From positions 20,573 to 84,572 of the forward strand of contig CAZHWT010000002.1 in NCBI GenBank assembly GCA_964536215.1: a stretch of DNA of 64,000 nt, given 5' to 3'. The notes under the pieces were generated by a model that was not told the DNA's origin, ran no database searches, and worked only from the letters and a program-made list of their open reading frames with translations. Below are positions 20,333 to 41,823 of this stretch, piece after piece (positions within the stretch are counted from its first letter, which is position 1; each line of letters starts with the position of its first letter). This stretch comes from an uncultured Candidatus Saccharibacteria bacterium. GTDB taxonomy: Bacteria > Patescibacteriota > CAZHWT01. The translations under genes were made by a program, and so were the position numbers.

Positions 20333-21073
20333 CTAGATCTTCATCCCTAATCGCTCAACCTCCTGCTCGATAGCAGAGGTCAAGCTGTCCACTTGCTGAA
20401 TCCGCTTACGGAACAGAGGCCAACCCGTTTCAGCGGCTGTTTGCTCTGGTGGATGACGGTAATCAACCTCAACCACTTTCCATGGTAACCCGTCACGAAT
20501 GATCCGCAGTTTGGGGATATGGATACTATCCCACCGGTCTCCGTACTCTCCTTGGTAGTCCAGATAGTACTGAACTGCCCGTTTGCTCAGAACAGTTGGT
20601 CCCCAACCAAAATCACAATCGATTCCGGTCAGGTATTTTGTAGCCAGCGCGATGAGCTGGTAGGCCATGGCCTGTTCTGGCGGATATGAGGCAAGGCTCT
20701 TCCGCCGCAACATCACCAGGTCATAGCCATGGTCGGTCACGTCCGCTGCAGCTTCGCCTAGTAGTGGCACCAGAGGGTATTTCTCTGGCTCCATCCATAC
20801 GATAGCCGATCGCTCCGATGAGACCGCCAACGCCCGCCGCAATGCCTGCCGCCTGGCCTTACCCATGCCGGGCTCATTCTGCGCATAAATGATAGCTCCC
20901 AGAGATTTAATGGCATTATAGTAGACTGTTGGCGAATCAGCGTCGACCGTTACTAGCCTGTAATCATAGTTTAGAGCTGCCTCAACTGTTTTTAGTGAAC
21001 ACTCCACCCGCACCCGCTCCTGTTCAGAGCCATACGAGGCTAGTGTCGTTGTCGCGATAACCGTCTGACTCAT
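20333..21073 (-). CDS. hypothetical protein
   Basis: 246 aa, AAGGAGA RBS. Confidence 0.5.
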   Translation of the reverse strand: MSQTVIATTTLASYGSEQERVRVECSLKTVEAALNYDYRLVTVDADSPTVYYNAIKSLGAIIYAQNEPGMGKARRQALRRALAVSSERSAIVWMEPEKYPLVPLLGEAAADVTDHGYDLVMLRRKSLASYPPEQAMAYQLIALATKYLTGIDCDFGWGPTVLSKRAVQYYLDYQGEYGDRWDSIHIPKLRIIRDGLPWKVVEVDYRHPPEQTAAETGWPLFRKRIQQVDSLTSAIEQEVERLGMKI

Positions 21074-21229
21074 GCCTGCTTCTCCTTCGCGAGTAATATG
21101 AGTATCAAACAGAACGATGAGGGAATTATACCAAACTATGGGCTTATGTCAAGCTCAAAATGTTATGCAAATAAAGTACGCACCCCTTTACACAATGGAA
21201 CTAGACCTAGATAGGTGATTAACTGGGCT

Positions 21230-21261
21230 AAAAAAGAAAACCCCGCAGAATGTCGGCGGGG
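21230..21261 (-). terminator. rho-independent terminator
   Basis: CCCCGCAGAATGTCGGCGGGG hairpin followed by a T-run on the minus strand. Confidence 0.6.
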
Positions 21262-21292
21262 TGGGATTGTGAGTCGTGTGGACACGTAGTCT

Positions 21293-21424
21293 TTAGTCAG
21301 CCAGTGTCTCAATCAAAGCTGACAGAAATGACGTAGTCACGTGATCCGTTGCTGGAACTAGCTTTTGTCGGGCATAGTTTAGGAGTTCACCGTTAAAAAG
21401 ACTGTCGCACAGCCTCTTTCTCAT
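21293..21424 (-). CDS. small hypothetical protein (43 aa)
   Basis: ATG with an AAGGAGA RBS. The track ORF starts with TTG at 21517. Confidence 0.3.
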   Translation of the reverse strand: MRKRLCDSLFNGELLNYARQKLVPATDHVTTSFLSALIETLAD

Positions 21425-21515
21425 GCCCGTCTCCTTTGTTATATGGCCAAAGTGCTCAACGTTTTCGATAATACCACACTCATGCCACGTCCCCGTTGAT
21501 GGAAGACTTCTGATC

Positions 21516-21542
21516 AAAAAACCCCGCCGGAGTCCGGCGGGG
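21516..21542 (-). terminator. rho-independent terminator
   Basis: CCCCGCCGGAGTCCGGCGGGG hairpin plus a T-run on the minus strand. Confidence 0.6.
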
Positions 21543-21567
21543 TAACAATAACTAATTTTTCGTCTGT

Positions 21568-22038
21568 TTATGAAGAGGTTGCCATCTTGCTTGCCAAGGC
21601 AGACAAGAACGAGGTTGGCGTCGGCACTGATGCCATGTCCATCTGTTCTTGGGCATAGCGCACTACTACCCCGTTTAGAACAGCATCGCAGACTCTCAAG
21701 ATCTGAATAACGGTTGCGTCCTCCAACATGGACGCAGAGTCGCCTACATCAAGAAAACTTGTCAGGCAGCCTCGTTTGCGATCAAACGAAATCATTAAGA
21801 TGGTGTGTGCGGATCTCAACGGTGAGATAAAAACGGTGACGTAGTTAGACTGGTCCTTAACCGTCACGACGTTACCCGAGATGATGCCTGTGTTCTCACA
21901 CCAAGCAAGACCACTTGAAGTTGGCATAACAGTCCAGCCAACTTCTGAGCTGAAAAAATCGACGCCAGCCTGCTTGAGTGCGGTAGCTAAGTCTTGAGCT
22001 ACGGGCGAAACAAATGCAACCGATGATGCAGCTTCCAT
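21568..22038 (-). CDS. hypothetical protein
   Basis: GGAGAG RBS before an internal ATG; the track ORF extends to 22077. Confidence 0.45.
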   Translation of the reverse strand: MEAASSVAFVSPVAQDLATALKQAGVDFFSSEVGWTVMPTSSGLAWCENTGIISGNVVTVKDQSNYVTVFISPLRSAHTILMISFDRKRGCLTSFLDVGDSASMLEDATVIQILRVCDAVLNGVVVRYAQEQMDMASVPTPTSFLSALASKMATSS

Positions 22039-22266
22039 TTTTCTTCTCTCCAATGCCTGCAATATTGCAGGATACAAATATACTACTATAGGTTACTAAT
22101 GTCAAGTTGGAATTGGCTAACTTTTGCATAGAACAAACAAGTATATCCTATAATATATTGATTATATAACTATAACGTGATATCATCAGCTCAGATTTTT
22201 ACTCGCATCACAAATGCGACAAAAGTCTTGCCCTTTAACAACTTGTGTTTGTGCAGGAGCAATTCT

Positions 22267-22821
22267 ATGGTTAGACAGGTTAGCGCCAAGGTGGTGCCGC
22301 GTAAAAACGGCATTATTCTTCTTGGACAAGCTGGAGAGGTGAGTATTACAGCCACAATAACAGTTCGCGATCAACGCCGCATTTATCGACAGTCTATGGC
22401 AACGGTAAGAGGCTTAAGGGTCTTTGCCGCCGCCAAACTGATCACAGAAGCCGCTACAAACCGATTTCTCGTTGCGGTGCAGCAAGAATTGTATTGGGAA
22501 GGACGGCAGATTTGGTCCGTTATAGACCCACTGGTTGGTAGCCGGGCCATTTATTCTTACCCTGAGAAAGTTTTTTCTTTTCCCAGGGACATGAAATTAG
22601 ATGGCGCTTGGGTATTGCAGTCCAGCATTGCCGTAGTGAGCATGGAGTCATTGCCAGAGTTAGGCAGAGACAGATTTCTGCAGGCTCTGCAGTACAATCC
22701 GCTCGGTCGCATGGAGTGGTACATTTACCACAACGAGCTCCTGGTGACGCCGACTGGTGAACGAAGGCCGGAAGTACCTCGCCCACGTCAAGATGTGGTC
22801 GTTGACATGAACGACATTTAG
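22267..22821 (+). CDS. hypothetical protein, first gene of the E2/JAB/E1 operon (candidate Ubl or substrate-recognition component)
   Basis: AGGAG RBS 8 nt before the ATG at 22267. A possible TTGCAT/TATAAT promoter lies upstream. The gene abuts the E2-like gene. Confidence 0.5.
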   Translation: MVRQVSAKVVPRKNGIILLGQAGEVSITATITVRDQRRIYRQSMATVRGLRVFAAAKLITEAATNRFLVAVQQELYWEGRQIWSVIDPLVGSRAIYSYPEKVFSFPRDMKLDGAWVLQSSIAVVSMESLPELGRDRFLQALQYNPLGRMEWYIYHNELLVTPTGERRPEVPRPRQDVVVDMNDI

Positions 22822-22838
22822 CAAAGGTGGTGTCTGCT

Positions 22839-23378
22839 ATGCCATACCGTTGGTTTTCAACCTATCATGAGAACAATTGGAGTCCTCAACGGGGCTACAA
22901 TGAGCTATTCGCCAAAGAAGTCCAGCAGGTCAGGGCATTCTTTTTCCTCGAACGAGTTTCGTTTGGGTTAGACCGGGGCGTAGGAAAATGGCGGAAATAT
23001 AACCGTGATGGAACAACGTATTATGCTCGCGTCAGTCAGTTTGAGTGGGGTAAGCTTTCTAAACTGGTAAAGTTTGAGAGCCCTGAATTCAGATTGCAGC
23101 TCGAGCTATCCACGAAACAGCATCAATCAGGTGTCTTTTTTAAAAAAAGCCTGGTTTTAGTATTTCCAACCAATTACCCTCGGGCTCGGCCTGACTGCAT
23201 CGTCGACTCTGCTCGATATCGCCAGCTCAGTGCATCCCACGATCATCACACATTTTCTAATGGTTGGATGTGTTTGACCAGCGATCAAAAACAATGGTCA
23301 GATGCATGCATGGCCGTAACGGCTATCAACTGGGCCGTAGAGTGGATTCATTTTCACTATACGACCTTTGGATTTTAG
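22839..23378 (+). CDS. E2-like (UBC-fold) ubiquitin-conjugating-enzyme-like protein, copy 1
   Basis: UBC-like landmarks are FPTNYPRARPDCIV..., HHTFSNGWMCL (HPN-like plus catalytic Cys) and W...INWAVEWI. RBS AAAGGTGG. Confidence 0.65.
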   Translation: MPYRWFSTYHENNWSPQRGYNELFAKEVQQVRAFFFLERVSFGLDRGVGKWRKYNRDGTTYYARVSQFEWGKLSKLVKFESPEFRLQLELSTKQHQSGVFFKKSLVLVFPTNYPRARPDCIVDSARYRQLSASHDHHTFSNGWMCLTSDQKQWSDACMAVTAINWAVEWIHFHYTTFGF

Positions 23379-23383
23379 AAAGG

Positions 23384-23983
23384 ATGGCGGGAATGCGCCA
23401 CTGGTTTACAACCTACACCGGAGCTGATTGGACGCCGCAACAATATGGCTATAACAGCCTATTTGCTGAGCATGTCCAGGTCATTCGCGATTATTATCGC
23501 CTCCGTAAACAGCGGCCAGGAGCAGAAATTGGCACTGGATACCGGCGCCAATACTCTCTTCAGGGCAAAGATTGGTCAATCGAAATTACGCGGTTTAGTT
23601 GGGGCAAATATCGCCGAGTTGGGAACGATTTAGTCGATAATGTTGGAGGCGACTACATCACCCCTCACTTGGAGTTGGAGTTTGTCATTTACGATAGCAC
23701 CGGACAGGTATTCATTAGTGATATCCCGATGGTGATCGAATTTGCGCCAGACTTCCCTGCCTCACCACCAAGGTTCCGATTGGATTCAGATCAGTATCGA
23801 GCCTTTAGTGGCACCGATGCCTCTCACCACATCCATAAAGGTGGATGGATGTGCATTATGGGCGGGGGGTACAGCTCTCGCTATACTACTTCGGAATGGA
23901 ATCCTGACGTCGACACTATTCTGGCCGGCCTTCACCGGGCATTTGACTGGATTGTGTGGCATCAGACCAAGTATGGATGGTGA
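23384..23983 (+). CDS. E2-like (UBC-fold) protein, copy 2 (paralog)
   Basis: Alignable to copy 1 (MRHWFTTY.. vs MPYRWFSTY..). Conserved HHIHKGGWMCI. The start is 5 nt after the copy-1 stop. Confidence 0.65.
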   Translation: MAGMRHWFTTYTGADWTPQQYGYNSLFAEHVQVIRDYYRLRKQRPGAEIGTGYRRQYSLQGKDWSIEITRFSWGKYRRVGNDLVDNVGGDYITPHLELEFVIYDSTGQVFISDIPMVIEFAPDFPASPPRFRLDSDQYRAFSGTDASHHIHKGGWMCIMGGGYSSRYTTSEWNPDVDTILAGLHRAFDWIVWHQTKYGW

Positions 23984-23988
23984 CAACC

Positions 23989-25266
23989 ATGACCGACAAC
24001 GCTGAAAAATCCACTCAGCAATCTGAATCGACGCCTGCTGCGAATGAACAGGCATCAATACTGTCCCCAGAAACCGCGACACCGCCTCAGAAAAAGTTAA
24101 ACTCGATCCTGGCCACCCTGAGAAAAATATTTTTCAATGGGTCCGAATCGAACACTGTATCTGAGGATGAACTGTTGGTTAAAGATCGAGCACCTCGCTC
24201 AGAGGAGTCGTCAGTAGTAATTGGGCCAACATTAGCAGAGCTTCTGGATAAGGCTCAAAAGCCTCATTCGGAAACGCCCTCAGCACCGCGGCCAAAACGG
24301 TTCGTCATTCCGCGCGTCGAGATTACCGCTGAGGTTATGTGCGTGATGGCCCAGGAAGTCATAGACAATGCCCATCAAGAGACCTCGTGGGGACTATACG
24401 GTATCCGCGATAGTCGCGATCAGGTCGTTATCTGTGGGGTATTGCTGCCAGATCACACCGTCCGTCGTAGTGTTGGCAATACAATATTTGGTTCGCCAAG
24501 TTATGGTGAAGAGATACGCTGGCTGAAAGCCAGTTATGAGTTTCGCAAAAAGCATGGCCTCGTGCCGGCAGATACCGAGCTCGAGTTCCTGTTCAAGGGA
24601 CACTCCCACCATACTCTAGGACTGCGGCGGTATTCTCCCACAGATATAGCATCCATTAAGGATGCAGTATCTAGTGGTTTAAGAATCGCCATTGGGCCAT
24701 TGGCCAACATTGACCGATTAGACCGCAAAGCCGATATCCGCTCAAGTGGAGATCGTGGTGCACTGACTATTCAAACAGGCAATTCCGTTACCTTCCATTT
24801 TTATTACCTATCACAGATGATGGTTGAAAATGGTATACGGGAGCCTGTCCTGATTCAACCGCACATTCGTAACGATAACTCTGTTACTCCACCACCAAGT
24901 TGCTGGAAGTTCCGCAAAGCTGACCTCTTTAGTCGTCAGATATCGCGACTTGCATCACATGGCTGTACTGTAACAGAGCAGTGGGCTGGCCAAAAGGACG
25001 GTTCACTACGGATTGTACTGAAGTTGACTCATCCTCATTGGGCAGGCGAGCTAAAAATTAGCACACCACACAATTTTCCCGATTCAGCCACGGAGATTAC
25101 CCTCCCGGATGGCCAGAAACAATTGTTTGAGCCAATTTCTGGAGCGGCTAATCCAGGCCAACAATTTGACCTGCTCGATATTGTTGTCGAGCTAGAACGA
25201 GAAGGAGCATTGTATGACCATGCAGTTGTATCGGACTCAGGGAATCCTGGACCTAAGCCAAGTTAG
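23989..25266 (+). CDS. JAB/MPN(+) metalloprotease-motif protein with a disordered Ser/Glu/Pro-rich N-terminus and a C-terminal region of unknown function
   Basis: JAMM-like motif GHSHHTLGLRRYSPTD (HxH...SxxD) with an upstream Glu. Operon position between E2 and E1. Confidence 0.55.
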   Translation: MTDNAEKSTQQSESTPAANEQASILSPETATPPQKKLNSILATLRKIFFNGSESNTVSEDELLVKDRAPRSEESSVVIGPTLAELLDKAQKPHSETPSAPRPKRFVIPRVEITAEVMCVMAQEVIDNAHQETSWGLYGIRDSRDQVVICGVLLPDHTVRRSVGNTIFGSPSYGEEIRWLKASYEFRKKHGLVPADTELEFLFKGHSHHTLGLRRYSPTDIASIKDAVSSGLRIAIGPLANIDRLDRKADIRSSGDRGALTIQTGNSVTFHFYYLSQMMVENGIREPVLIQPHIRNDNSVTPPPSCWKFRKADLFSRQISRLASHGCTVTEQWAGQKDGSLRIVLKLTHPHWAGELKISTPHNFPDSATEITLPDGQKQLFEPISGAANPGQQFDLLDIVVELEREGALYDHAVVSDSGNPGPKPS

Positions 25267-26134
25267 GCAGCAAAAGCTGCTGGTGCTTGGTCTAGGTAGC
25301 GTCGGTTCGCTATGCGTAAGCAATCTAGCCTACCCATGGCGGCAAATTGTCCTAGCTGACCCAGACACTCTGGAGCCAGAGAACATTGAACGCCATCTGC
25401 TAGGCCACGACGGCAACATCGGTCAACCTAAGGTTGACGGTGTTAAGCGATGGCTCGTAGATCGGGGCATGCAGGAGCAAAATATTACCGCCTATCATGG
25501 TAATGCTCTTGACATTCTTGATCAGCACACAGACGCCGATCTGGTGCTCGTTGCAATTGACAAACGTCGTGTCCGCGATGCAATTAATGGCTGGTGTTAT
25601 TCTCATCGAATCCCAGCTATGTATGGCGGCGTTTATCCTAAAGCCGTCGGTGGGCATATCATGGTTATACCGGATCCCCACCAAGCATGCTATCTGTGCG
25701 CCGAACACCTAATGGGTGGCGATACACAGGATAGCAAGGAGGTTAATTATGCTGTAGATATCACTCAAATTAAAGACGAGAGTGATATGGAGGCGGCTGT
25801 CGCTCTTCGCGCTCCAATCAATGCCATTGCCACTACCATGGCCAATCTGGCACTTGATTTTCTCAAAGGAAGTACGGTAGAATCCCAGGTATTCATTCAG
25901 GTGTTTGCCGAATGGGAAAATATCGTCATGTTGCCTCATCAGCACCCGGTTGTCGAAGCTTCTTCGCACTATGCGGAGCAGCTAAAGAAGACCATGCTGA
26001 TGCCAACAGAGGAGGTTCAAATTGACGGCCAATGGGCCGTTATAAATCGACGTAATACTACGGCTCAGTTGAGCTTGTATCGGTGGGCAAAGTGCCCGCT
26101 TCATCTTGCTCGTGTTGAGCTTGATCAAATTTAG
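25214..26134 (+). CDS. E1-like ThiF/MoeB-family adenylyltransferase
   Basis: Rossmann LVLGLGSVGS...LADPDTLEPENIERHLLG. CxxC near HQACYLCAE. GAAGGAG RBS. Overlaps the JAB gene by 53 nt. Confidence 0.75.
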   Translation: MTMQLYRTQGILDLSQVRQQKLLVLGLGSVGSLCVSNLAYPWRQIVLADPDTLEPENIERHLLGHDGNIGQPKVDGVKRWLVDRGMQEQNITAYHGNALDILDQHTDADLVLVAIDKRRVRDAINGWCYSHRIPAMYGGVYPKAVGGHIMVIPDPHQACYLCAEHLMGGDTQDSKEVNYAVDITQIKDESDMEAAVALRAPINAIATTMANLALDFLKGSTVESQVFIQVFAEWENIVMLPHQHPVVEASSHYAEQLKKTMLMPTEEVQIDGQWAVINRRNTTAQLSLYRWAKCPLHLARVELDQI

Positions 26135-26147
26135 AAAGAGGACAGAC

Positions 26148-26375
26148 ATGGTTAGGGACTTTAGCGCTGAGAATGAAATTCCCGAAGTCGAAGTGATCGA
26201 TCCGGGTGGAGCTCCGCAGGGGCTGGGGAACCGCTTCTTCGGCAATATTCCCGGTTTGGGAACGGTGCAACGGGCTATCCAGCCTGTTGAGATTGTCGAC
26301 GACGAGGGAAGGCCGGCAATGATGCAGGACGACGCTGGCATCCAGGCTGCTTCAAAGCGGCACACGTTTGCCTAA
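26148..26375 (+). CDS. small Gly/Pro-rich, probably disordered protein (75 aa) ending the operon
   Basis: AAGAGGA RBS 6 nt before the ATG. The sequence contains DPGG and low-complexity GLG repeats. Confidence 0.45.
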   Translation: MVRDFSAENEIPEVEVIDPGGAPQGLGNRFFGNIPGLGTVQRAIQPVEIVDDEGRPAMMQDDAGIQAASKRHTFA

Positions 26376-26407
26376 ATCACTGCCACTAGGTAGCAACGCC
26401 CGAGGGA

Positions 26408-26444
26408 TATTCTATATCCCCCGGGCATTTTTTATGCATAAAAA
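26408..26444 (+). terminator. rho-independent terminator of the E2/JAB/E1 operon
   Basis: GCCCGAGGGATATTCTATATCCCCCGGGC hairpin followed by ATTTTTTAT. Confidence 0.6.
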
Positions 26445-26495: not shown

Positions 26496-27788
26496 CTATC
26501 CTCCCGCTCGAGATTGCTTAGCGGCCGTATGGTGTTGCTCAGCCAGCAGCGCCACAAAGGAACGGCGCTCTTGAATGACTTTAACCTTGGCACTTAGGAT
26601 AGCTGCGTCCATCTTTCCGCCGCCTAAGCTGATGTACTCCAGTCTTTCCTCCTCTTTCTGTAATTGTCGAAGCACGTCTTCCGGCATGTCGTAAATAAAC
26701 ATCAGGCAATATTCCCAGGTCTGATCAAAATCAACCTCGAGTTGAATCAAATCTGACTGGACTTTCTCGACCTGAGCTAAGAGAGTTGCCTTGCTATCTC
26801 GCACCATGCTCAACGACTGCTTGGCTTGCTGGATAATTATGTCAGCGTCCACCATGGCTTGGATAGCTTCTTGCCAGTTTTGCGCATCCATACTAATCTC
26901 GTGCTGCAGTTGTGGCAGACGGGACCAGCAGTGGTTTATGACTTCTACTGCTGCCTTGAATATCCGACGTGGTTCCTCAAGGCAAGAGTCTGCATAGATG
27001 TCGGCGATCTCATTGATAACCTGCTCAGTCTGAGGGATATCCTTCACCCGCGCATCAGTCACTTCAGCAATAAACTCGCCAAGCGCCTTTTCGGCCCGCC
27101 CCTTGAACTCCACAAGCTTTTTTATTTTGCGCCGCGTGGCTACGAGGTGCTTGTGGTATTGCTTAGCCAAATCGGCTGCCATAAAAGGGTTCTGGTTCTG
27201 CTCACGAATCGCCTGTTCTAGTAGGTCCTTAGTTCTCAGGCATTCCTGATAAAACGGCTGGACCTGGTATTGCTGTCGAGCCAGTTCGTTTAATTCGCCG
27301 ACAGTCCTATGCAGCAAGTTCTCGGTTACTCGAATAGCTGCTTTTACTTCAACATAAGCAGCAGACAAGTTCTGCATCGCTGCTATTTGCTGCTGCATTG
27401 AGGAAGCCAAATGGACAAAGTTAGTATGGAGTAGTGACGACTTTCTGATCACAGCTTCAAATTGGTATTTTGAAGTAACGCGCCCCTCATTCCACTCTTG
27501 TACGAACTGAGACCAGGAGGTCGCCAATTCGTTATACCTGCGAAGACTGGCACTATACTCAGCCTCTCGCTGAGTAATCATTTCTGAATCGATTTGCAGT
27601 TGGGCCAGTTGATTCCAAGCGTCACGTAATTGTGAGCATAATTGACGAACTTCACGCTCCTTAACTGGAACTGCAACTACTTGTCGTGTCGCAGTCTGAC
27701 GAGCCTGATCAAAGGCTGACCAATTGGTCAGTCCGACCAGGATACCAATAAGCACTACTGCCACCAGTAGTGGAAGCCATATTGCCAT
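26496..27788 (-). CDS. membrane-anchored coiled-coil protein (EzrA-like architecture)
   Basis: N-terminal TM segment (MAIWLPLLVAVVLIGILVGL) followed by ~400 aa of heptad-rich helix. AAGGAGG RBS. Confidence 0.55.
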   Translation of the reverse strand: MAIWLPLLVAVVLIGILVGLTNWSAFDQARQTATRQVVAVPVKEREVRQLCSQLRDAWNQLAQLQIDSEMITQREAEYSASLRRYNELATSWSQFVQEWNEGRVTSKYQFEAVIRKSSLLHTNFVHLASSMQQQIAAMQNLSAAYVEVKAAIRVTENLLHRTVGELNELARQQYQVQPFYQECLRTKDLLEQAIREQNQNPFMAADLAKQYHKHLVATRRKIKKLVEFKGRAEKALGEFIAEVTDARVKDIPQTEQVINEIADIYADSCLEEPRRIFKAAVEVINHCWSRLPQLQHEISMDAQNWQEAIQAMVDADIIIQQAKQSLSMVRDSKATLLAQVEKVQSDLIQLEVDFDQTWEYCLMFIYDMPEDVLRQLQKEEERLEYISLGGGKMDAAILSAKVKVIQERRSFVALLAEQHHTAAKQSRAGG

Positions 27789-27999: not shown

Positions 28000-28167
28000 T
28001 TAGCTCTTCTTGCCACCGTTGTTGCCACCCCCGCCCTTGAGCGAGTCGTGGTGATCTTTCTTTTTCTCAAAGTTTTTAGACTTTGAGGAGTCGTCGGCCT
28101 TTTTTTCTCGGTCTCCTGACTTTTTGTTGCCGAACGGGGTATAGTTGGGTTTAGGCTTGTTTGCCAT
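28000..28167 (-). CDS. small Lys/Gly-rich basic protein (55 aa)
   Basis: AGGAGA RBS before an internal ATG. Ends ...GGGGNNGGKKS. Divergent from the giant gene. Confidence 0.4.
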   Translation of the reverse strand: MANKPKPNYTPFGNKKSGDREKKADDSSKSKNFEKKKDHHDSLKGGGGNNGGKKS

Positions 28168-28473
28168 GCTCCATCTCCTGGAGTATGCGGCAGATACCGC
28201 GCAGTGCTCAGACTCCCTAAGCGAGGCTATGGTACCACAATTATATGTAAAGCACAATAGTAAAACTAAAAGGTTACATTAGCGTAGCGGAAGCTGTTGT
28301 AGGAGTATAACGTCGTGGCTATGATCCGACTAACAATTCTCACACTTATCTTTACCACAGAATATCTCACATGATTGCCGGTGCAAGCTTAAGTGTCGGT
28401 TAGTAAAAGTTTATACTAGTAGCTGTCAAAAGTATTGGACAGAAATTGGCAATGGAATAACGGTCATCTAGCC

Positions 28474-31400
28474 ATGGAATGGCCTCCAGTTCAGATGCTA
28501 TACTTGATTCTAATGTCCTCTGAATTTGGTACACCCCCACCAGATAAACTGCAATTGGTTGAGAAAGCTGACGCTCCTGCATTAAAGCAAGCCCCACTGC
28601 ATACACACCGACCTGTTGAGATTCAACACATCGAGCATAGTACTAATATAGATACTAGCTATGGCGAGAAAACCTGGCATCCATCGCAGTCTATTGTCGA
28701 TTTGCTTCAGAACCACCTCGACGCTAATACTTCTGCCTTTGAAAAGTCACGCCTCAAATTAGTTGGTATATCGGAATACAAACCTGATCAACAGGCCATC
28801 CTGGAGTCAATGTCCCTCTTTGCGGCTGAAACAGATCCTGTCGTCCAAGAAGTACACTTTCATAAGCTTGTGGCGCTACTTGAATCATCCTCTGGCATTA
28901 GCACACTGCTTCAGGATAGCCAACAGAATATGAATGCATTATGGCAGCAGCTTCAAGAGGTAAGGTATGAAGTCCCAGAGCTTAAGCTGAAGCTAAGCAA
29001 CGGCCAAACAAGTAAATTCGTGTCCTATACAGAAGTGGCGACGGAGGACTCCGAATGGCAGGTCGTTGGTTACCTTATAGCAGATAATGGGCCCGGCTTT
29101 GATCATGCGCTGCTTGGCCTGATGGGTGCTACAACTAAAGGCGAAGATGACAATAGACGAGGTGGATTGGGTGAAGGGTTAAAAATGAGCCTAGCCCAGT
29201 TGAATAGGGTTGGCGCGGATGTGCGGATCCTGTCCCGGAATACCGACCAATCGTGGTGGCTTAAGCCCCAGGTTAATGACGGGCTTTTGTCGCTGGATGG
29301 TACGGCTGTCGATCGGAAGCTGACAGTTCAATCGCCATCGGAAGGGTCTCGGACAATGGTTGATCTTAGTCAAGCCAATATGACAGACCTGCAATGGAGA
29401 GAAATTCGGAACATCTTGGATAGTCGAATCTCGCCCGAAGGCATTGCTAAGTATGTCCTGGAGTTCCATCCCGACATAGCCCCAGAAAAGCTCGAAGGCG
29501 ATGCCTTGTTTCAGAATGAAGTGCCAGCTGGGCGGGTGTACGTTAAAGGACTGCTGGTTGAGGAAGATCGGTCAGATTTACTTTGGAGCTACAACTTATC
29601 GGACAAATGGGCCATTTCTGGCCGCGATCGCAAGACGGTTGATGTAGCCATACTTGACGTAGCCATTATCGACAAGTTGACTGACTTGACAGACTACGAG
29701 TCTATCTTGCAGATAGTCCGACTAATGAATGATCCATCCACAGATATCATTCCCCGGGAAGTAAGATGCCTGCGGTTTATCTATAAATTGCCGGAGTCTC
29801 AGCAGTCACTCTGGCGACAGGCAATAGAGGAAGTATTTCATTTTGAGTCAGGTAAGACTGTGTTCTGCCCATCGAATGCCGACTTTGAACATAAACGATT
29901 AGCCGAACAACGCGGCTATACATTGCTGGTCGTCAGGCCAGAGATTTTATCCATGTTATCCATTATTTCCGCAGCCTATGATCCCTCGCCTGTCTATAGA
30001 TTAGATGAACTTGTGAAGCAGCTCACTGCATCGGACGAATCAACTGAAACGATTGATAAAACTTTTAACGCCGTGCTCCATCATATGGTAGAAAGCTATG
30101 CAGCTGATAATCTGGCTACAATCCCGCGCAGTCAATATCAATTAGGCAATCTGTCTTTTGTGCACAAAACAAATAGTAATGCAGATAGATTTATGACCGA
30201 CTTCCCATATTGGGTAGACTGGTATAAGGATACGATCGCAGTTGATACCGACGCCATCTCTAATGGCTTTGCTCGCGATGCCGATTTGCTGCTAGCCACA
30301 GAGATGTTCTTCGAATGGAAATCGTCATTCACTGACGAAGTACAACATGCCTTGGGTCAAATGGTGGCCAGCGCAGTGCTTCGTCATCACCCGGAGCTGT
30401 TCGAAGTGGCGTTGCCAAGTCATATTGCAGAGCGCATTGCTGTAGATGTGCCTAACATTGGCTACACTAATGAACAGCGTCAGAAAGATGCTGTAAAAAT
30501 TGCCTTCGACTACTTAGAAGCACAGCTTTATCATTTAGCAACCGATGAGGACCGCCAGCAATTTCTAGCGTCAATTGAGGCGACCAAGCAGTTATTGGCT
30601 GGGACGGACGCAGATATAGTCAAATCTGTACCACTGTCTTCGTTTATATACCTACCATTTCATGTTGCTGGTCAACTAAAATGGGTTACTGAAGAGCTAG
30701 AGGTAGCTGACAACGCAAAGGATTTTCCATGGCTAAAACTGCGTCGATCGCCGGATGAAATAGATGATTTACAATCCCTTAATTATATGCTCTTGGATAT
30801 ACCTGTAGGGCAATACAAATCCTACGGATATAAGGCCGGCGATCAGAAAGGACGATTGGTTATATCAAGGACGGACTATGGATATAGTGTTGATCGTATC
30901 GAAGATATCCTGACAGCATCTGACACTTCAAGCCACAATCAGGCTGCTATCGATGAAAAGGCCGGGGACAATGTTCAATCGTTTATCTTGGGCGATTTGT
31001 TATATATAAATCTCAATCAGCCGGATGCTCAATTTTATGAAATTCCCACTCCTCAAACTACTCCGCTTCCAGAAAAAAATCGGGGTTTAGAATTTATTTC
31101 GGCTAACACGACGTTAGATTATGGTAGCAAAGTCTGGAGTGATCCCAAGCGCATCCTGATCGATGCTATTCAGAATCATCGTGATGCCAATGGTGGTCAG
31201 CCGCCACGCATTACCTTCCAGATTAGTAATAGCCAGGGCGAGACTATGGATGTAGATATGGCCGCCCTCACTGGCATGCCTTCAGATTGGGTGATTGTGA
31301 GCGTGTCAATTGAAGATCATGGCACGGGATATACCACTCCATATCTGGTGCAAATGGGGAGTAGTACCAAAACTGATGCAGACGCAGGTAAGTTTGGAGA

Positions 31401-32853
31401 GGGGCTGAAGATGTTGACCGCCGCAGCTACGCGCCAGCAGATTGACCTCCGGTTGGAATCTAAGGATTGGCAGGCTTCTCCTACTTCAACAACCGAACAA
31501 GCTATTGACCATGACACTGGTCAGAGTAAACAGTTTGACGTTCTAGCCTATAATCTTAAGTGGTCTGATCGGCCTAGAGATGGATCCATGACCACCTTCT
31601 CTATTTTTAGCAACGGTCACCCCTGGAGCCGCCAGCAATTTGAACAGCTGCAGCGGTCGGAAGAATTGCTTGTGAACGATGCGCATGTACCGCAGCGAAT
31701 CCGAACGTGGCGCCAATGGTTGGACATACTTGATCCTCGCGTTACCGATGCCACCGGAAATACTGGACTGGATAGGTTTGTGTTGCCGGTTGAGTCAGAG
31801 AAATTTTACAACGCATATGTCAGCGTGTTAACAGATCGACCTGGCCAAGTCTTTGAAAAGAATTTGCTTATACCTGACGCTGCTACAAGCCTTAATGGCA
31901 GCAAGCAGCTCATGTTTGGCTATAACTTGCACCAGTCAACCATAAACACGAGAGAGCGAAATGCCATTTCACCAACAGTCTTTAAGGATACTGTTTCCCA
32001 GTATTTTAATCAGGACGCTGGCAGTGTCATCTTTAAGGAGATGCTAAGTAGAGCCAAAGAGGATCCTCAGACTAGTTATTATGAGTATGAGCTTTTAGAA
32101 GAGTCTGACCGTGTGCAGATACTTTTACGGCAGGCCTACTATGACGTCTTTGGTGATGATGCTATTTTGTCTATCGCTAGCATTTCTGAACAACAGCATC
32201 AAGAAGAGTTGATGAAGGTGCATTTAGAGCGAGCTAATACGGTATTCCTACCACCTTTCCTAACAAGGCGGCTCAGTAAGTCGGTTTATACAACGGCTGA
32301 CTATTTCAAGAATTTAGAGGGTAAAGAAGTTGAAGTAACCGATCAAGAGCGCGCTCAGTTGTACACATTAGCTACCCGCGTTAACCAAATTGTTGATGAT
32401 TATTACCGGCAAATGTTAAATGATCCAGACAAGCTGCAGTACCTTAGTAAGGGATGGCTAAAGCTAGGCTATGACCAAGGTGAAGTGGTTGATGTTATCA
32501 GGGATCGACTTGCTCAATTGTCTCAGATGAATGAGCAGGATATTAGAGTTGGCTCTAGTTTAAATCCTCATGGCGGCATGTATAAAACCGGCCAGGATAA
32601 TCGAATTAAAATCGAGGTCAGTCAAGTCTTATTGCATAATCATAAAGCATTTTTGGAGGTCTATCTTCATGAGGTTATTCACCATATGACTGGAGAAAAT
32701 GATTTTGAGTTAGGCTTCGTCCGAGGTTTTGTGGCTTTGGCTATGCAGGCAGATGAGCACGTTCAACGCCTTACGAAAATAGAGCAAAAGGCGCTATCAT
32801 TGCCGTTGATTCGTAAATTTTTGAATGCCAGAACGCGTATCAAGCGAAGATAG
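28474..32853 (+). CDS. giant protein with two tandem GHKL (Bergerat-fold) ATPase-like modules and a C-terminal HExxH motif
   Basis: Motif set 1 is LLQNHLDAN / IADNGPGF / GGLGEGLKM; set 2 is IDAIQNHRDAN / IEDHGTGY / GKFGEGLKM (N-box, G1, G2). C-terminal YLHEVIHHMTGEND. The start is uncertain: TTG at 28435 or ATG at 28474 or 28513. Confidence 0.7.
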   Translation: MEWPPVQMLYLILMSSEFGTPPPDKLQLVEKADAPALKQAPLHTHRPVEIQHIEHSTNIDTSYGEKTWHPSQSIVDLLQNHLDANTSAFEKSRLKLVGISEYKPDQQAILESMSLFAAETDPVVQEVHFHKLVALLESSSGISTLLQDSQQNMNALWQQLQEVRYEVPELKLKLSNGQTSKFVSYTEVATEDSEWQVVGYLIADNGPGFDHALLGLMGATTKGEDDNRRGGLGEGLKMSLAQLNRVGADVRILSRNTDQSWWLKPQVNDGLLSLDGTAVDRKLTVQSPSEGSRTMVDLSQANMTDLQWREIRNILDSRISPEGIAKYVLEFHPDIAPEKLEGDALFQNEVPAGRVYVKGLLVEEDRSDLLWSYNLSDKWAISGRDRKTVDVAILDVAIIDKLTDLTDYESILQIVRLMNDPSTDIIPREVRCLRFIYKLPESQQSLWRQAIEEVFHFESGKTVFCPSNADFEHKRLAEQRGYTLLVVRPEILSMLSIISAAYDPSPVYRLDELVKQLTASDESTETIDKTFNAVLHHMVESYAADNLATIPRSQYQLGNLSFVHKTNSNADRFMTDFPYWVDWYKDTIAVDTDAISNGFARDADLLLATEMFFEWKSSFTDEVQHALGQMVASAVLRHHPELFEVALPSHIAERIAVDVPNIGYTNEQRQKDAVKIAFDYLEAQLYHLATDEDRQQFLASIEATKQLLAGTDADIVKSVPLSSFIYLPFHVAGQLKWVTEELEVADNAKDFPWLKLRRSPDEIDDLQSLNYMLLDIPVGQYKSYGYKAGDQKGRLVISRTDYGYSVDRIEDILTASDTSSHNQAAIDEKAGDNVQSFILGDLLYINLNQPDAQFYEIPTPQTTPLPEKNRGLEFISANTTLDYGSKVWSDPKRILIDAIQNHRDANGGQPPRITFQISNSQGETMDVDMAALTGMPSDWVIVSVSIEDHGTGYTTPYLVQMGSSTKTDADAGKFGEGLKMLTAAATRQQIDLRLESKDWQASPTSTTEQAIDHDTGQSKQFDVLAYNLKWSDRPRDGSMTTFSIFSNGHPWSRQQFEQLQRSEELLVNDAHVPQRIRTWRQWLDILDPRVTDATGNTGLDRFVLPVESEKFYNAYVSVLTDRPGQVFEKNLLIPDAATSLNGSKQLMFGYNLHQSTINTRERNAISPTVFKDTVSQYFNQDAGSVIFKEMLSRAKEDPQTSYYEYELLEESDRVQILLRQAYYDVFGDDAILSIASISEQQHQEELMKVHLERANTVFLPPFLTRRLSKSVYTTADYFKNLEGKEVEVTDQERAQLYTLATRVNQIVDDYYRQMLNDPDKLQYLSKGWLKLGYDQGEVVDVIRDRLAQLSQMNEQDIRVGSSLNPHGGMYKTGQDNRIKIEVSQVLLHNHKAFLEVYLHEVIHHMTGENDFELGFVRGFVALAMQADEHVQRLTKIEQKALSLPLIRKFLNARTRIKRR

Positions 32854-33116
32854 TAGATCTAGTTGTGCCATCCGCTATAGTAATTTGACAACCCATAACC
32901 GTATCAGATATAGACGAGTTACTTCGAGCACATAGTTAAAAGAACGAAGAGGCGATAAGCGCCTATCCGTCCGTCGTTTGTGGCGGCAACACTACTGCAC
33001 TCCTCGATCAAACGCGGAGTGCAGCGCTACTGGAACGTTTTCAGTTTTCCCAAATTCTAGAATGACACTGTGGTGCACTAGCTAATGACTACATTTGTAT
33101 AATGCTTTAGGGAAGG

Positions 33117-33149
33117 TAAAAAATGCCCCACTCAGGTAAGGAGTGGGGC
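33117..33149 (-). terminator. rho-independent terminator
   Basis: GCCCCACTCAGGTAAGGAGTGGGGC hairpin plus a T-run on the minus strand. Confidence 0.55.
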
Positions 33150-33188
33150 AAGGTGTAAACTGTAGCCTAGTGACCGTGCCATGTTAGG

Positions 33189-33389
33189 CTACAAAAAGAT
33201 CATCGCGACAAACCAGGTTAGCATGAAAGCCAAAAATCCAATGACGGGCGCTACCTCAATGTCATCGCCCGACCGTACGACCAAAATCATCGCCACAATG
33301 GCTGCGATGACTGCTATATAGAATCCGATAGCCAGCGGTTCCGTGGCAGTAAGTGCCATTTGCCTTCCCCTGTCGTTAGGCCCGGTCAC
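33189..33389 (-). CDS. small membrane protein
   Basis: 66-aa hydrophobic ORF. Confidence 0.4.
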   Translation of the reverse strand: MTGPNDRGRQMALTATEPLAIGFYIAVIAAIVAMILVVRSGDDIEVAPVIGFLAFMLTWFVAMIFL

Positions 33390-33543
33390 ACTTTCTATAC
33401 CATTTTAAGTTTATAAAGTCAATCTATAGGACAACGGGTCATAGCTAACCGTAATGGCGCCGGGGGTATGGTCGCCAAAGATGATAGTAAGTGGGACCGC
33501 CACCTTTGACGGAGACTATTCGTTAGGCATACCTTGCCCCTGA

Positions 33544-33576
33544 CAAATAAATACCCATTTAAATAGCCATTTATTA
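33544..33576. repeat. dispersed element CAAATAAATACCCATTTAAATAGCCATTTATTA
   Basis: Member of the 6-copy family, immediately downstream of the 33590-34903 gene. Confidence 0.7.
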
Positions 33577-33589
33577 CAAAAGTCACATG

Positions 33590-34903: not shown

Positions 34904-35107
34904 ATCGGATTCTCCTAATCTTTGATTTATCAACATAAACGGCGTGTAATGCTTAATATTGTAATTAAGAACATTAAGCGTAGGCCTTTGTCATTCTGAA
35001 CACAGTGAATCATCCACCCCCCCCGATATAGCATTTACCTGGAAGATCCTTCGCATATGCTCAGGATGACAATTGTCTGAGAGGGTTTCGCTATGAGCTT
35101 TAATTAC

Positions 35108-36127: not shown

Positions 36128-36277
36128 ACGAGAGCTCCTCAATCAGCTTATCACACTTCTAAAATACGCCTGACCATGTTCGGGTATTATTCGCCTAAAC
36201 CGTTTAACCGTCAACAGCCAACCTAAGAATTGCACAGTTAATTCCATAATGACTTCAAATCCACTCAGGCAAATCAA

Positions 36278-36324
36278 CAAACAGGTAAGCCAGGTGTCCA
36301 GAGATAAACACCTGGAAGGTGGTG
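36278..36324 (+). repeat. partial copy of the modular intergenic repeat (M3 module ending ACCTGGAAGGTGGT)
   Basis: aacaggtaagccaggtgtccagagataaacacctggaaggtggt. Confidence 0.6.
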
Positions 36325-36369
36325 CATTGAAATTCATCGAAAATAATTAGTACAATACAAGCACAAAAA

Positions 36370-36564
36370 GACGCCGGCAGTCCTGGAGGACAGCCCACGT
36401 CTTTTTTAGTATCCACACCATTTCAAGTCAATATCCAATTACGTACGCACACGTGTACATACTAACTTGGAAGCATCTGAGAAGTATAATCAAAACCACC
36501 CACCTCCCAAGTGAATAGTTTAGTGGGTGGAATAGGTGTTCTGAGGCAATCTCCGGAAGATGGT
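36370..36564 (+). repeat. modular intergenic repeat copy A (M1 hairpin/T-run, degenerate GTACGTAC box, M3)
   Basis: Alignable to the copies at 37299, 39158, 39937, 41094 and 41824. Confidence 0.65.
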
Positions 36565-41798: not shown

Positions 41799-41823
41799 TC
41801 ATTATCCTTTCAACCAAAATAAA

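What the first reader, a model, noticed from the sequence alone, without database searches (positions are those of the whole stretch)
22267..26375. Compact E2-E2-JAB-E1 operon: a bacterial ubiquitination-like (Bil/Bub-type) candidate with tandem duplicated E2
Six tightly packed plus-strand genes, with gaps of 5-14 nt or overlaps, end in a clean terminator. Two are paralogous UBC-fold proteins that retain the E2 landmarks (FP..YP..P, H-x-x-GWMC(L/I), W..I.W). One protein carries a JAMM/MPN+ motif (HSHHTLGLRRYSPTD). One is a ThiF/MoeB E1-like enzyme with a GxGxxG loop. From established knowledge, E1+E2+JAB+Ubl operons are antiphage conjugation systems. Here the E2 is duplicated in tandem, the JAB protein has a long disordered N-terminus plus an unassigned ~170-aa C-terminal domain, and no obvious beta-grasp/GG-terminated Ubl is visible. 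These points suggest a variant architecture. Which gene encodes the transferred modifier (22267-22821 or 26148-26375) is inference.
Basis: partly seen in the sequence, partly recalled or inferred. Interest (0 to 1): 0.85.

Follow-up and report, generated by a model that had tools for sequence, protein, structure and literature searches.

The report
Rare bacterial E1–E2–JAB protein-tagging operon
This is a real six-gene operon for a ubiquitin-style protein-tagging machine (activating enzyme, two conjugating enzymes, a de-tagging protease) that belongs to a very rare, undescribed family and probably attaches a small tag ending in alanine that shows no sign of a ubiquitin fold.

Summary
Six co-directional, tightly packed genes (22267-26375) end in a strong hairpin plus U-run. 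They encode:
- a ThiF-type E1 (Pfam 1.5e-26);
- two paralogous E2s whose family profile hits only canonical E2s in the PDB (7e-5), with the catalytic Cys aligned;

New details:
- The protease's "unassigned" C-terminal domain is a Cys-less UEV/UBC-like fold.
- The first protein (A) is an Ig-like beta-sandwich, not a beta-grasp Ubl.
- A and the E1 share a co-varying C-terminal tail (…D-x-I/L/M).
- The last small protein (F) has an invariant Ala that is either the last residue or is followed by 1-6 variable residues. That is the signature of a processed modifier.

The family is very rare: 59 clusters among 1.84 billion representatives, all unnamed. It fails the defining tests for Bil, Bub and type II CBASS.

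Best reading: a new variant of bacterial ubiquitination-like conjugation, with F as the tag, the JAB-UEV protein as its processing and de-tagging enzyme, and A as an E2-docking adaptor or substrate. The enzyme identities are solid. The identity of the modifier, the role of A and the biological function are inference.

The parts
22158..22186 (+). Weak sigma-70-like promoter candidate upstream of gene A
   Evidence: Consensus scan gives 9/12 matches with a TG extension. The number of such sites does not exceed the shuffled expectation, so this is only a candidate.
22267..22821 (+). Gene A (184 aa). Ig-like/RhoGDI-like beta-sandwich (residues 7-154) plus a flexible tail. The tail has an invariant Gly164 and a C-terminal ...V-D-M-N-D-I motif shared with the E1.
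22839..23378 (+). E2-a (179 aa). UBC-fold conjugating enzyme, catalytic Cys145 (23271-23273), His137; 'first-position' paralogue class.
   Evidence: PADLOC E2 models 2.7e-5. The family profile hits 86 PDB E2s at E <= 0.01, best UBE2B at 7e-5, with the Cys aligned. Cys is invariant in 17 sequences. It is closer to the first-position E2s of L013 and L007 (37-38%) than to its neighbour E2-b (31%).
23393..23983 (+). E2-b (196 aa). Second UBC-fold paralogue, catalytic Cys154 (23852-23854), His146, with a GGGYSS insertion after the Cys; 'last-position' class.
   Evidence: Same profile evidence as E2-a. 41-47% identical to L013_c, L012_b and L007_186. Weak Pfam Prok-E2_B hit.
23980..24279 (+). N-terminal ~100-aa low-complexity, non-conserved extension of the JAB protein
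   Evidence: Absent from homologues in L008, L011, L014, L015 and L020. Present but unalignable in L007, L012 and L013. Composition falls on the disordered side.
24301..24891 (+). JAMM/MPN+ metalloprotease domain of protein D (E134, H208, H210, S219, D222)
24892..25215 (+). C-terminal UEV/UBC/RWD-like domain of protein D, without a conserved Cys (non-catalytic)
25214..26134 (+). E1 (306 aa). Single ThiF/MoeB-type adenylation domain with a Zn site (C159, C162, C294, H297). No conserved Cys elsewhere. C-terminal tail ...V-E-L-D-Q-I.
   Evidence: Pfam ThiF 1.5e-26; PADLOC Cap2-type E1-E2 models 2.4e-21; BilD 1e-8. Motif conservation in 9 homologues.
26148..26375 (+). Gene F (75 aa). Acidic, Pro/Gly-rich small protein ending ...A-A-S-K-R-H-T-F-A. 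Candidate modifier.
   Evidence: Present immediately after the E1 in 12 loci. An invariant Ala is either the last residue (5 of 12) or is followed by 1-6 variable residues that begin with G, S or T. No Pfam hit. Composition is roughly on the disordered side.
26398..26432 (+). Intrinsic terminator of the operon (bulged GC-rich hairpin followed by U6)
   Evidence: Sequence. Fold -26.2 kcal/mol for the 70-nt stretch, z = -4.9.
26496..27788 (-). Convergent gene G (430 aa): N-terminal TM helix plus a long helical region. Possibly an associated component in this subclade.
   Evidence: Homologous genes occupy the same convergent position in L007, L012 and L013 (E 1e-12 to 1e-19 at about 20% identity). 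Absent in L008, L011, L015 and L020. No Pfam or PADLOC assignment.

Best explanation
This is a self-contained ubiquitination-like protein-conjugation operon of an undescribed, very rare family.

Shown:
- An active-looking MoeB-size E1.
- Two (elsewhere 1-4) E2s with an invariant catalytic Cys.
- A JAMM/MPN+ isopeptidase fused to a non-catalytic UEV-like domain.
- A beta-sandwich protein (A).
- A small protein (F).

Inferred mechanism:
1. F is the modifier. Where F carries extra residues after the invariant Ala, the JAB protein trims them. In this window F already ends in Ala.
2. The E1 adenylates that C-terminal Ala.
3. The E1 has no conserved Cys outside its Zn site, so the acyl group passes directly (or via a non-Cys intermediate) to the catalytic Cys of an E2.
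4. The E2 is docked on the E1's extreme C-terminal tail, which directly follows the Zn-binding C-x-x-H. This is the same region that forms the E2-binding element of BilD.
5. Protein A carries the same co-varying tail. It then takes the E1's place on the charged E2 and acts either as an E3-like adaptor or as the acceptor.
6. The two ancient E2 classes would give two acceptor specificities, or work as a pair.
7. The JAB-UEV protein reverses the modification, with its UEV domain holding the tag or an E2-like surface.

The biological role is unknown. An accessory conflict or stress function is the most likely, possibly at the membrane in this subclade (gene G).
For: Enzyme identities:
- E1.
- E2.
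- JAB.
- UEV-like domain.

Operon conservation: the order A-E2(n)-JAB-E1-F holds in the 7 loci that include the upstream gene (window, L007, L008, L011, L012, L013, L015, L020) at 25-47% identity. Truncated contigs show partial versions.

F as modifier:
- The C-terminal Ala is invariant in 12 of 12. The endings are FA*, FAG*, FAGRN*, FA*, FA*, FAGAEA*, FASE*, FAGRERRE*, FATPE*, FASSQ*, MA* and NA*.
- Precedent 1: in Bil, BilC removes the residue after the reactive Gly (10.1101/2023.09.26.559546).
- Precedent 2: in type II CBASS a non-beta-grasp protein is conjugated through a C-terminal Gly or Ala, and Ser, Val, Arg or Trp at that position abolish conjugation (PMC10097602).

A is not a Ubl.

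Shared tail:
- A | E1 tails are DMNDI | ELDQI, SIDDI | AISDI, SMDDI | DMSDI, HLDEI | DASDI, SLDNI | SADDI, PLDQI | SAEDI, SMDDM | KISDM and SLNDL | SLGDL.
- The last residue co-varies: I/I six times, M/M once, L/L once.
- In the sister family the tails are SLADIFNGG | SLEDIFAN.
- The BilD E2-binding element lies right after the C-terminal Zn ligands.

Rarity: 59 representatives in 1.84e9. There are only 3 close E1 relatives in 5.8e9 proteins.
Against: - No experiment and no complex model supports any interaction.
- F's fold is unknown. Longer F versions (82-117 aa) may hide a small domain, possibly a degenerate beta-grasp.
- F has no hit to any family.
- In Bil the first gene, the position A occupies here, is the Ubl. 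A also has an invariant Gly about 20 residues before its end. In the sister locus L017 the A-like protein ends in ...NGG. A processed A could therefore be the conjugated moiety instead.
- L019 has E2-JAB-E1 without A directly upstream.
- The shared tail could bind the JAB-UEV protein, or the E1 active site, rather than the E2.
- The co-variation rests on only 8 loci.
- Genome contexts are mostly housekeeping: between mreB and mreC in L008, next to rpsB/tsf in L020, next to rplS in L012. Nothing was found on phages or plasmids. A defence role is therefore not supported directly.
Confidence: 0.5

Rival explanations
1. Protein A, not F, is the conjugated moiety, in CBASS-like logic where a non-Ubl protein is attached through its own C-terminus. 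The JAB would cut A after the invariant Gly164 (T-G|E). The E1 would adenylate that Gly, and the E2s would attach the beta-sandwich protein to targets. F would be a regulator, a pseudo-substrate, or the acceptor (it has a conserved Lys70).
For: - A sits where BilA sits in Ubl-E2-DUB-E1 operons.
- A has a globular domain followed by a flexible tail with an invariant Gly.
- The L017 A-like protein ends in NGG.
- CBASS shows that E1/E2 enzymes can conjugate a non-beta-grasp protein.
Against: - The Gly lies about 20 residues from the end, within a tail whose extreme end is itself highly conserved and is shared with the E1. That is odd for a discarded propeptide.
- A is missing upstream of the E2 in L019.
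- F's variable extension after an invariant Ala is the more typical precursor signature.
Confidence: 0.2
2. It is a member of the Bil or Bub families, and works exactly like them: a beta-grasp Ubl conjugated to phage proteins.
For: - The gene order X-E2-JAB-E1 equals that of Bil.
- There is a weak PADLOC BilD hit on the adenylation domain (1e-8).
Against: - The E1 has no IAD and no CYS domain, and no conserved non-Zn Cys.
- The E2 Cys is invariant, unlike Bub.
- There is no DUF6527/BubE and there are no fusions.
- The first protein is a beta-sandwich.
- No Bil or Bub PADLOC model other than the BilD adenylation region hits any of the six proteins.
Confidence: 0.05
3. The E1 is a peptide-modifying adenylase, as in microcin C (MccB) or pantocin (PaaA), or a sulfur-carrier activator. 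F would be its precursor peptide or carrier, and the product would be a small molecule or thiocarboxylate rather than a protein conjugate.
For: - The E1 is MoeB/ThiF-sized, with best NCBIfam similarities to ThiF, MoeB and UbaA.
- F is a small peptide-like protein with a conserved C-terminal motif.
- The contexts are chromosomal and housekeeping-like.
Against: - One to four E2s with an invariant catalytic Cys, plus an MPN+ isopeptidase with a UEV domain, are conserved in every locus. None of them is needed for MccB, PaaA or ThiF chemistry.
- There is no rhodanese, sulfurtransferase, export or immunity gene in the operon.
- All ThiF and MoeB NCBIfam scores are far below the family cut-offs.
Confidence: 0.1
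4. The cascade is real, but the acceptor is not a protein chosen by A. The tag (F or A) would be attached to a membrane lipid or envelope component, as with Atg8-PE. The membrane-anchored coiled-coil protein G, or the TM-bearing variants, would serve as the platform.
For: - G is conserved and convergent in four loci.
- The L013 JAB and the L017 A-like protein carry N-terminal hydrophobic segments.
- A's best Foldseek matches are the lipid-binding RhoGDI/UNC119/PDE-delta sandwiches.
- A PAP2 lipid phosphatase follows the operon in L008.
Against: - G is absent from half the loci.
- No lipid-handling enzyme is conserved.
Confidence: 0.15

Closest known systems
Type I/II BilABCD (Bacterial ISG15-like) operons
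   Different: - BilD is an IAD-AAD-CYS pseudo-dimer with a catalytic Cys. Here the E1 is a single 306-aa adenylation domain with no such Cys.
- BilA is a beta-grasp Ubl ending in Gly. Here the first protein is a beta-sandwich ending in D-x-I.
- This system has an extra small protein ending in Ala, tandem E2 paralogues and a UEV domain on the JAB.
Type II CBASS Cap2/Cap3
   Same: - The closest profile matches for the E1 are PADLOC Cap2-type E1-E2 models (2.4e-21).
- The E2s match PADLOC CBASS E2 models (2.7e-5) and Pfam E2-CBASS.
- The conjugated C-terminus can be Ala, and the conjugated protein need not be a beta-grasp (PMC10097602).
   Different: - There is no CD-NTase and no effector.
- E1 and E2 are separate genes, not a fusion.
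- E2 is present in 1-4 copies.
- The JAB carries a UEV-like domain.
- The additional proteins A and F are present.
Bub (6E/DUF6527) operons
   Different: - Bub E2s use Ser and the E1 uses Tyr (oxyester intermediates). Here the E2 Cys is invariant.
- Bub has JAB-E1 or E2-E1 fusions, a DUF6527 serine protease and 1-3 beta-grasp Ubls. None of these is present here.
Pup / UBact-type disordered tags (author's own knowledge, not tested here)
   Same: A small, acidic, probably largely disordered protein whose conserved extreme C-terminus would be the attachment point. In the sister locus L017 a ClpB-like AAA+ unfoldase sits directly upstream, which recalls Pup-Mpa.
   Different: Pup is ligated by a glutamine-synthetase-like ligase (PafA) through a C-terminal Glu side chain. 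Here the machinery is E1/E2/JAB and the end is Ala. There is no sequence similarity.
Eukaryotic BRCC36 (JAMM) complexes with UEV-domain subunit BRE/BRCC45 (author's own knowledge)
   Different: In eukaryotes the UEV domains are on a separate subunit. Here one UEV-like domain is fused to the C-terminus of the protease.

Membership tests
ThiF/MoeB/E1-like adenylating enzymes | Rossmann-type adenylation domain with a G-x-G-x-x-G loop, an Arg finger, an Mg-binding Asp, and often a CxxC...CxxC/H Zn site | tested here: met
   Pfam ThiF 1.5e-26, above the cut-off. G26-x-G28-S29, R60, D116, C159/C162 and C294/H297 are invariant in 9 homologues.
UBC/E2 superfamily | UBC fold with a catalytic Cys after an H-P-N-like motif and an F/Y-P-x-x-Y-P-x-x-P-P strand | tested here: met
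   The profile of 17 sequences hits 86 PDB E2s (best 7e-5) and nothing else, with the Cys aligned to Rad6 Cys88. F109, P118 and C145 are invariant; H137 and W153 are nearly invariant. No structure model of the E2s was made, and no single Pfam E2 model reaches its cut-off.
JAMM/MPN+ metalloproteases | MPN fold with the E...H-x-H-x(7-8)-S-x-x-D zinc site | tested here: met
UEV/RWD (non-catalytic UBC-like) domains | UBC-like alpha/beta fold without the catalytic Cys | tested here: met
BilABCD (type I/II) | [quoted passage not shown] | tested here: not met
   The E1 is 306 aa with a single domain and no conserved Cys outside the Zn site. The PADLOC BilD match covers only the adenylation core (profile positions 209-350 of 453, 1e-8).
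BilABCD (type I/II) | Beta-grasp Ubl (BilA) with a C-terminal Gly, encoded first in the operon | tested here: not met
   The first protein is a beta-sandwich ending in D-x-I. The fold of F was not modelled.
Bub (6E/DUF6527) | E2 without a catalytic Cys (Ser oxyester), a DUF6527 serine protease, and JAB-E1 or E2-E1 fusions | tested here: not met
   The E2 Cys is invariant. No DUF6527 hit in the operon or its neighbours. All genes are separate.
Type II CBASS | CD-NTase and an effector together with a Cap2 (E2-E1 fusion) and Cap3 | tested here: not met
   No CD-NTase or effector model hits any operon or neighbouring protein. E1 and E2 are separate.
6A-MBL (E2-E1-JAB triple fusion plus metallo-beta-lactamase) | A single triple-module protein next to an MBL-fold gene | tested here: not met
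   There is only a weak NCBIfam cap2_3 hit on the E1 (36.5 bits against a cut-off of 320). No MBL gene and no fusion.
Ubiquitin-like (beta-grasp) modifiers | Beta-grasp fold with a flexible C-terminal tail ending in Gly(-Gly) | tested here: inconclusive
   A: not beta-grasp. F: no family hit, ends in Ala, and its composition is mostly on the disordered side.

The most novel reading that the evidence does not exclude
An E1/E2 cascade that conjugates a Pup-like, largely disordered, non-beta-grasp tag through a C-terminal alanine. Substrate selection would come from a beta-sandwich adaptor that docks on the E2 by mimicking the E1's own C-terminal tail, a minimal one-peptide solution to the E1/E3 hand-over. 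A JAB-UEV fusion would act as the eraser. The sister family is linked to a ClpB-like unfoldase, so the tag could be a degradation or unfolding signal. That would make it a third, independent bacterial 'tag-for-unfoldase' system built from ubiquitin-type enzymes.
Probability: 0.25. Interest if true: 0.85.

Novelty: new variant of a known kind. Interest (0 to 1): 0.68.

Why it matters
Bacterial ubiquitination-like systems (CBASS Cap2/3, Bil, Bub) have only recently been shown to perform real protein conjugation, and each new family has revealed unexpected chemistry. This family adds five features:
- a minimal homodimer-type E1 paired with Cys-active E2s;
- conserved tandem E2 paralogue classes, with copy number from 1 to 4 and one decayed copy;
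- a deubiquitinase fused to a UEV domain, an arrangement that in eukaryotes is spread over separate subunits;
- a probable modifier that ends in Ala and shows no evidence of a ubiquitin fold;
- a shared, co-varying C-terminal peptide on the E1 and on a beta-sandwich protein.

The shared peptide gives a directly testable model for how an E2 alternates between its E1 and a substrate adaptor without an E3 domain. All components are small and soluble-looking, so the system could be reconstituted in E. coli. It occurs only in uncultivated bacteria, so it also marks biology that culture-based defence screens cannot see.

Tried and rejected
1. The word-index homology search with the JAB protein alone found only itself.
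2. A concatenated A+E2+JAB+F alignment, meant to fetch four families in one search, failed. This wasted the last search of that kind.
The problem was solved by using hits of the exhaustive search and cluster look-ups.
5. Scans of metagenome and viral contigs with the JAB patterns found nothing. A 5-sequence E1 alignment gave 5 more loci.
6. The afdb50 fold library was unavailable.
8. Beta-grasp in A: rejected by the model and by two fold searches.
9. Beta-grasp at the JAB C-terminus: rejected. It is UEV-like.
10. Mobile-element origin: there are no tblastn hits in the 50,697 phage and 72,556 plasmid records.
11. Upstream minus-strand genes (20333-22077) as part of the system: rejected because they are not conserved in other loci.
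12. Taxonomy of the source organism could not be established with the tools left. One related MAG is labelled 'uncultured Gammaproteobacteria' and another only 'bacterium'. My suspicion of a Patescibacteria-like origin, based on many unannotated ORFs and a 784-kb top contig in L008, is untested.

Full report
**1. Observation**

The region 22267-26375 holds six plus-strand genes:
- A: 22267-22821, 184 aa.
- E2-a: 22839-23378, 179 aa.
- E2-b: 23393-23983, 196 aa.
- D (JAB protein): about 23980-25266, 428 aa.
- E1: 25214-26134, 306 aa.
- F: 26148-26375, 75 aa.

Intergenic distances are 17, 14, -4, -53 and 13 nt, and Shine-Dalgarno-like sequences precede the starts. A bulged GC-rich hairpin at 26398-26426 followed by U6 closes the operon. 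The 70-nt stretch folds at -26.2 kcal/mol, z = -4.9. A second hairpin serves the convergent gene downstream. The GC content of the operon (0.47-0.50) is that of the surrounding chromosome.

**2. The enzymes**

E1:
- It matches Pfam ThiF at 1.5e-26. Among defence models it is closest to the E1 part of Cap2-type E1-E2 fusions (2.4e-21) and weakly matches BilD (1e-8).
- It is far below the cut-offs of all ThiF, MoeB and UbaA equivalogs.
- In nine family members the nucleotide loop G-x-G-S-x-G-S, the N-x-E-R-H arginine, Lys73, Asp116, the Y-G-G-x-Y-x-x-G-x-G-G crossover region and a Zn site (C-Y-x-C ... C-x-x-H) are invariant. No other Cys is conserved.

E2s:
- The two E2s are 30% identical to each other.
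- Single sequences give only weak hits: PADLOC CBASS E2 2.7e-5, Pfam UEV and Prok-E2_B, and a weak precomputed E2-CBASS hit.
- A profile of 7 and then 17 family members retrieves 181 and 86 PDB chains respectively. All are canonical E2s, the best being UBE2B/Rad6 at 7e-5. The alignment runs through the F-P-x-x-Y-P-x-x-P-P strand to the catalytic Cys.
- The Cys is invariant. A His in the position of the H-P-N motif, and a following Trp, are nearly invariant.

JAB protein (D):
- It has no Pfam, NCBIfam, PADLOC or PDB sequence hit.
- An exhaustive phmmer search of 1.84 billion cluster representatives found 59 relatives, 45 of them at E <= 1e-10.
- In an alignment of 45 relatives, E134, H208, H210 and D222 are invariant and S209 and S219 nearly so. 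These are exactly the JAMM zinc and catalytic residues. A few members reach weak Prok-JAB or JAB hits.
- The AlphaFold model built on that alignment has pLDDT 90.8 and pTM 0.86.

**3. The unassigned parts**

- The roughly 100 N-terminal residues of D are low-complexity. They are absent or unalignable in homologues.
- A profile-profile comparison with the operon's own E2 family aligns the characteristic beta-strand and P-x-x-P motif (probability 77%, P = 2e-5). No Cys is conserved there. It is therefore a non-catalytic UEV-like domain fused to the protease.
- Protein A was modelled from nine orthologues (pLDDT 84.8). Residues 7-154 form a beta-sandwich and the last 28 residues are flexible.

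**4. The family and its conserved anatomy**

All six window proteins are singletons at 90% identity. The E1 has only three close relatives in 5.8 billion sequences. Contigs encoding relatives of the E1 or JAB show the same order.

| Locus | Gene order |
|---|---|
| L007 | A, three E2s plus one copy decayed into 105-aa and 38-aa fragments, JAB, E1, F |
| L012 | A, 2 E2, JAB, E1, F |
| L013 | A, 3 E2, JAB (630 aa with N-terminal hydrophobic segments), E1, F |
| L008, L011, L015/L016, L020 | A, 1 E2, JAB (about 315 aa), E1, F |
| L014, L022-L026 | Truncated fragments consistent with the same order |
| L019 | E2-JAB-E1 with no A directly upstream |

The window's two E2s are each closer to the positionally equivalent E2 of other loci than to each other: E2-a 37-38%, E2-b 41-47%, against 31% between them. 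The tandem pair is therefore an old, maintained duplication with further lineage-specific copies.

A convergent gene for a membrane-anchored helical protein (window 26496-27788) is conserved in the four loci whose JAB has the long N-terminal extension.

A more distant sister family (L017) has a ClpB-like AAA+ gene, then a TM-anchored A-like protein, an E2 (Pfam E2-CBASS), a JAB-UEV protein, an E1 and a 101-aa protein.

**5. Two sequence signatures that bear on mechanism**

(a) F. Sequence similarity among F orthologues is confined to the C-terminus, A-[AVS]-[AK]-[KQ]-x-x-x-[FMN]-A. The endings are FA*, FAG*, FAGRN*, FA*, FA*, FAGAEA*, FASE*, FAGRERRE*, FATPE*, FASSQ*, MA* and NA*. The Ala is invariant in 12 of 12. 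It is the terminal residue in five, and is otherwise followed by 1-6 unconserved residues beginning with G, S or T.
- This is the pattern of a modifier precursor trimmed by its peptidase. BilC does this to BilA and BubCD does it to BubAB.
- A C-terminal Ala is an accepted E1/E2 substrate end in type II CBASS, where bulkier residues abolish conjugation.
- F is acidic, has 20-26% Pro plus Gly in the 74-75-aa forms, has no family hit, and sits mostly on the disordered side of a charge-hydropathy plot.
- The 82-117-aa forms may contain a small N-terminal domain that I could not model.

(b) Tails. A and the E1 both end in h-x-h-[DNSE]-[DNQE]-[ILM]-COOH.

| Locus | A tail | E1 tail |
|---|---|---|
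| window | DMNDI | ELDQI |
| L007 | SIDDI | AISDI |
| L012 | SMDDI | DMSDI |
| L013 | HLDEI | DASDI |
| L008 | SLDNI | SADDI |
| L011 | PLDQI | SAEDI |
| L015 | SMDDM | KISDM |
| L020 | SLNDL | SLGDL |
| L017 (sister) | SLADIFNGG | SLEDIFAN |

- The terminal residue co-varies: I/I six times, M/M once, L/L once.
- Two unrelated proteins of one operon keeping the same co-varying C-terminal peptide argues for a common docking site.
- In the E1 the tail follows directly on the C-terminal Zn ligands. In BilD the loop and helix at exactly that place form the E2-binding element.
- My inference is that the tail docks the E2, and that A competes with the E1 for it. This is analogous to the mutually exclusive E1/E3 binding of eukaryotic E2s (established knowledge).
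- Docking on the UEV domain of D is an alternative.

**6. Most likely mechanism**

Shown: the enzymes and their catalytic residues.

Inferred:
1. The JAB trims F where needed. In this window F already ends in Ala75.
2. The E1 adenylates Ala75.
3. The acyl group passes to Cys145 or Cys154 of an E2 docked on the E1 tail. There is no E1 thioester, because no suitable Cys is conserved.
4. The charged E2 is then engaged by the tail of A, which presents a target or is itself modified.
5. The JAB-UEV protein reverses the modification.

I put about 0.9 on 'functional E1-E2-JAB conjugation system', about 0.5 on F as the modifier, and about 0.2 on A, processed after the invariant Gly164. The A reading is suggested by A's position, which equals BilA's, and by the NGG end of the L017 A-like protein. 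The remaining probability covers an unlinked or non-protein partner. A peptide-antibiotic or sulfur-carrier reading of the E1 is unlikely because Cys-active E2s and an MPN+ isopeptidase are conserved in every locus.

**7. Biological role**

This remains open.
- For a conflict or accessory role: extreme rarity and patchiness; E2 copy-number change and decay; a nearby lower-GC island with a type IIG restriction-modification enzyme and a RhuM-Fic candidate defence gene, 7-20 kb downstream; and analogy with Bil and CBASS.
- Against: the operon itself has host-like GC. Its neighbours in other genomes are housekeeping genes: mreB/mreC, rpsB-tsf-frr, rplS-pyrG. Nothing similar is on the sequenced phages or plasmids searched.
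- The ClpB-like gene of the sister family hints at unfolding or degradation of tagged proteins.

**8. Comparison and novelty**

The system works like the Bil and CBASS Cap2/Cap3 conjugation machineries but fails their membership tests:
- no IAD-AAD-CYS E1;
- no beta-grasp first gene;
- no CD-NTase;
- no fusions;
- no DUF6527;
- the E2 Cys is retained.

It matches none of the operon types 6a-6e of Iyer et al. 2006 (PMC1779556). Full-text searches found no description of a JAB-UEV fusion with tandem E2s and an Ala-terminated small protein. The library is incomplete, however, and the published version of the Chambers et al. study in Nature did not come up in my searches; only its preprint did.

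I classify it as a new variant of a known kind. It is of real interest to the field because it is small, appears easy to reconstitute, and poses sharp questions: a non-Ubl tag, tail mimicry in place of an E3, and paired E2 classes.

Noticed in passing
window 28435-32853 (+): A 1472-aa protein with weak GHKL-type HATPase_c similarity (1.8e-4; the sequence suggests two such modules) and a C-terminal SprT-like HExxH metalloprotease motif (7.8e-3). It has no PADLOC hit and no counterpart next to the operon in other loci.
   Followed up: partly
window 26496-27788 (-): A convergent gene for a protein with an N-terminal TM helix and a long helical region. Homologues at about 20% identity occupy the same position in L007, L012 and L013. 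These are the loci whose JAB protein also has a long N-terminal extension.
   Followed up: partly
window ~33000-47500: A lower-GC stretch (0.41-0.44 against 0.47-0.50) holding DUF2130 (33590-34936), a RhuM+Fic protein matching PADLOC candidate PDC-S23 (35108-36142, 6e-134) and an MmeI-type IIG restriction-modification enzyme (44729-47464). It looks like a defence-type island a few kb from the operon.
   Followed up: partly
window 43911-43984 (-): ARAGORN calls a tRNA-Asp with anticodon AUC. This anticodon is unusual for bacteria. Rfam confirms a tRNA (51 bits). It lies at the edge of the low-GC island next to the RM gene.
   Followed up: no
L007 7505-8065: One of four tandem E2 copies is broken into 105-aa and 38-aa fragments, so it is a decaying paralogue. 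The contig also has Ns inside the next E2 copy.
   Followed up: partly
L017 2-5708: A sister family at about 25% identity. A ClpB-like AAA+ gene (AAA_2 3e-61, ClpB_D2-small) ends 6 nt before a TM-anchored A-like protein that ends ...SLADIFNGG. The E1 ends ...SLEDIFAN. The small last protein has a long extension after a possible G-F-G-A site.
   Followed up: partly
window 23370-23378, 23975-23983 and orthologues: The extreme C-termini of the E2s are also conserved ([YF]-[GQR]-[WF]-COOH), as are those of the JAB proteins (G-[EKM]-L). Every protein of the operon therefore has a conserved last few residues.
   Followed up: no
L008 4644-12683: In this 784-kb contig the operon, together with a DnaJ-like gene and a PAP2-like membrane protein, sits between mreB and mreC. 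It looks like an insertion into a conserved cell-shape cluster.
   Followed up: no
window 28000-28257 (-): An 85-aa ORF with a very Lys- and Gly-rich tail lies between gene G and the 1472-aa gene. It is not known whether it is a real gene.
   Followed up: no
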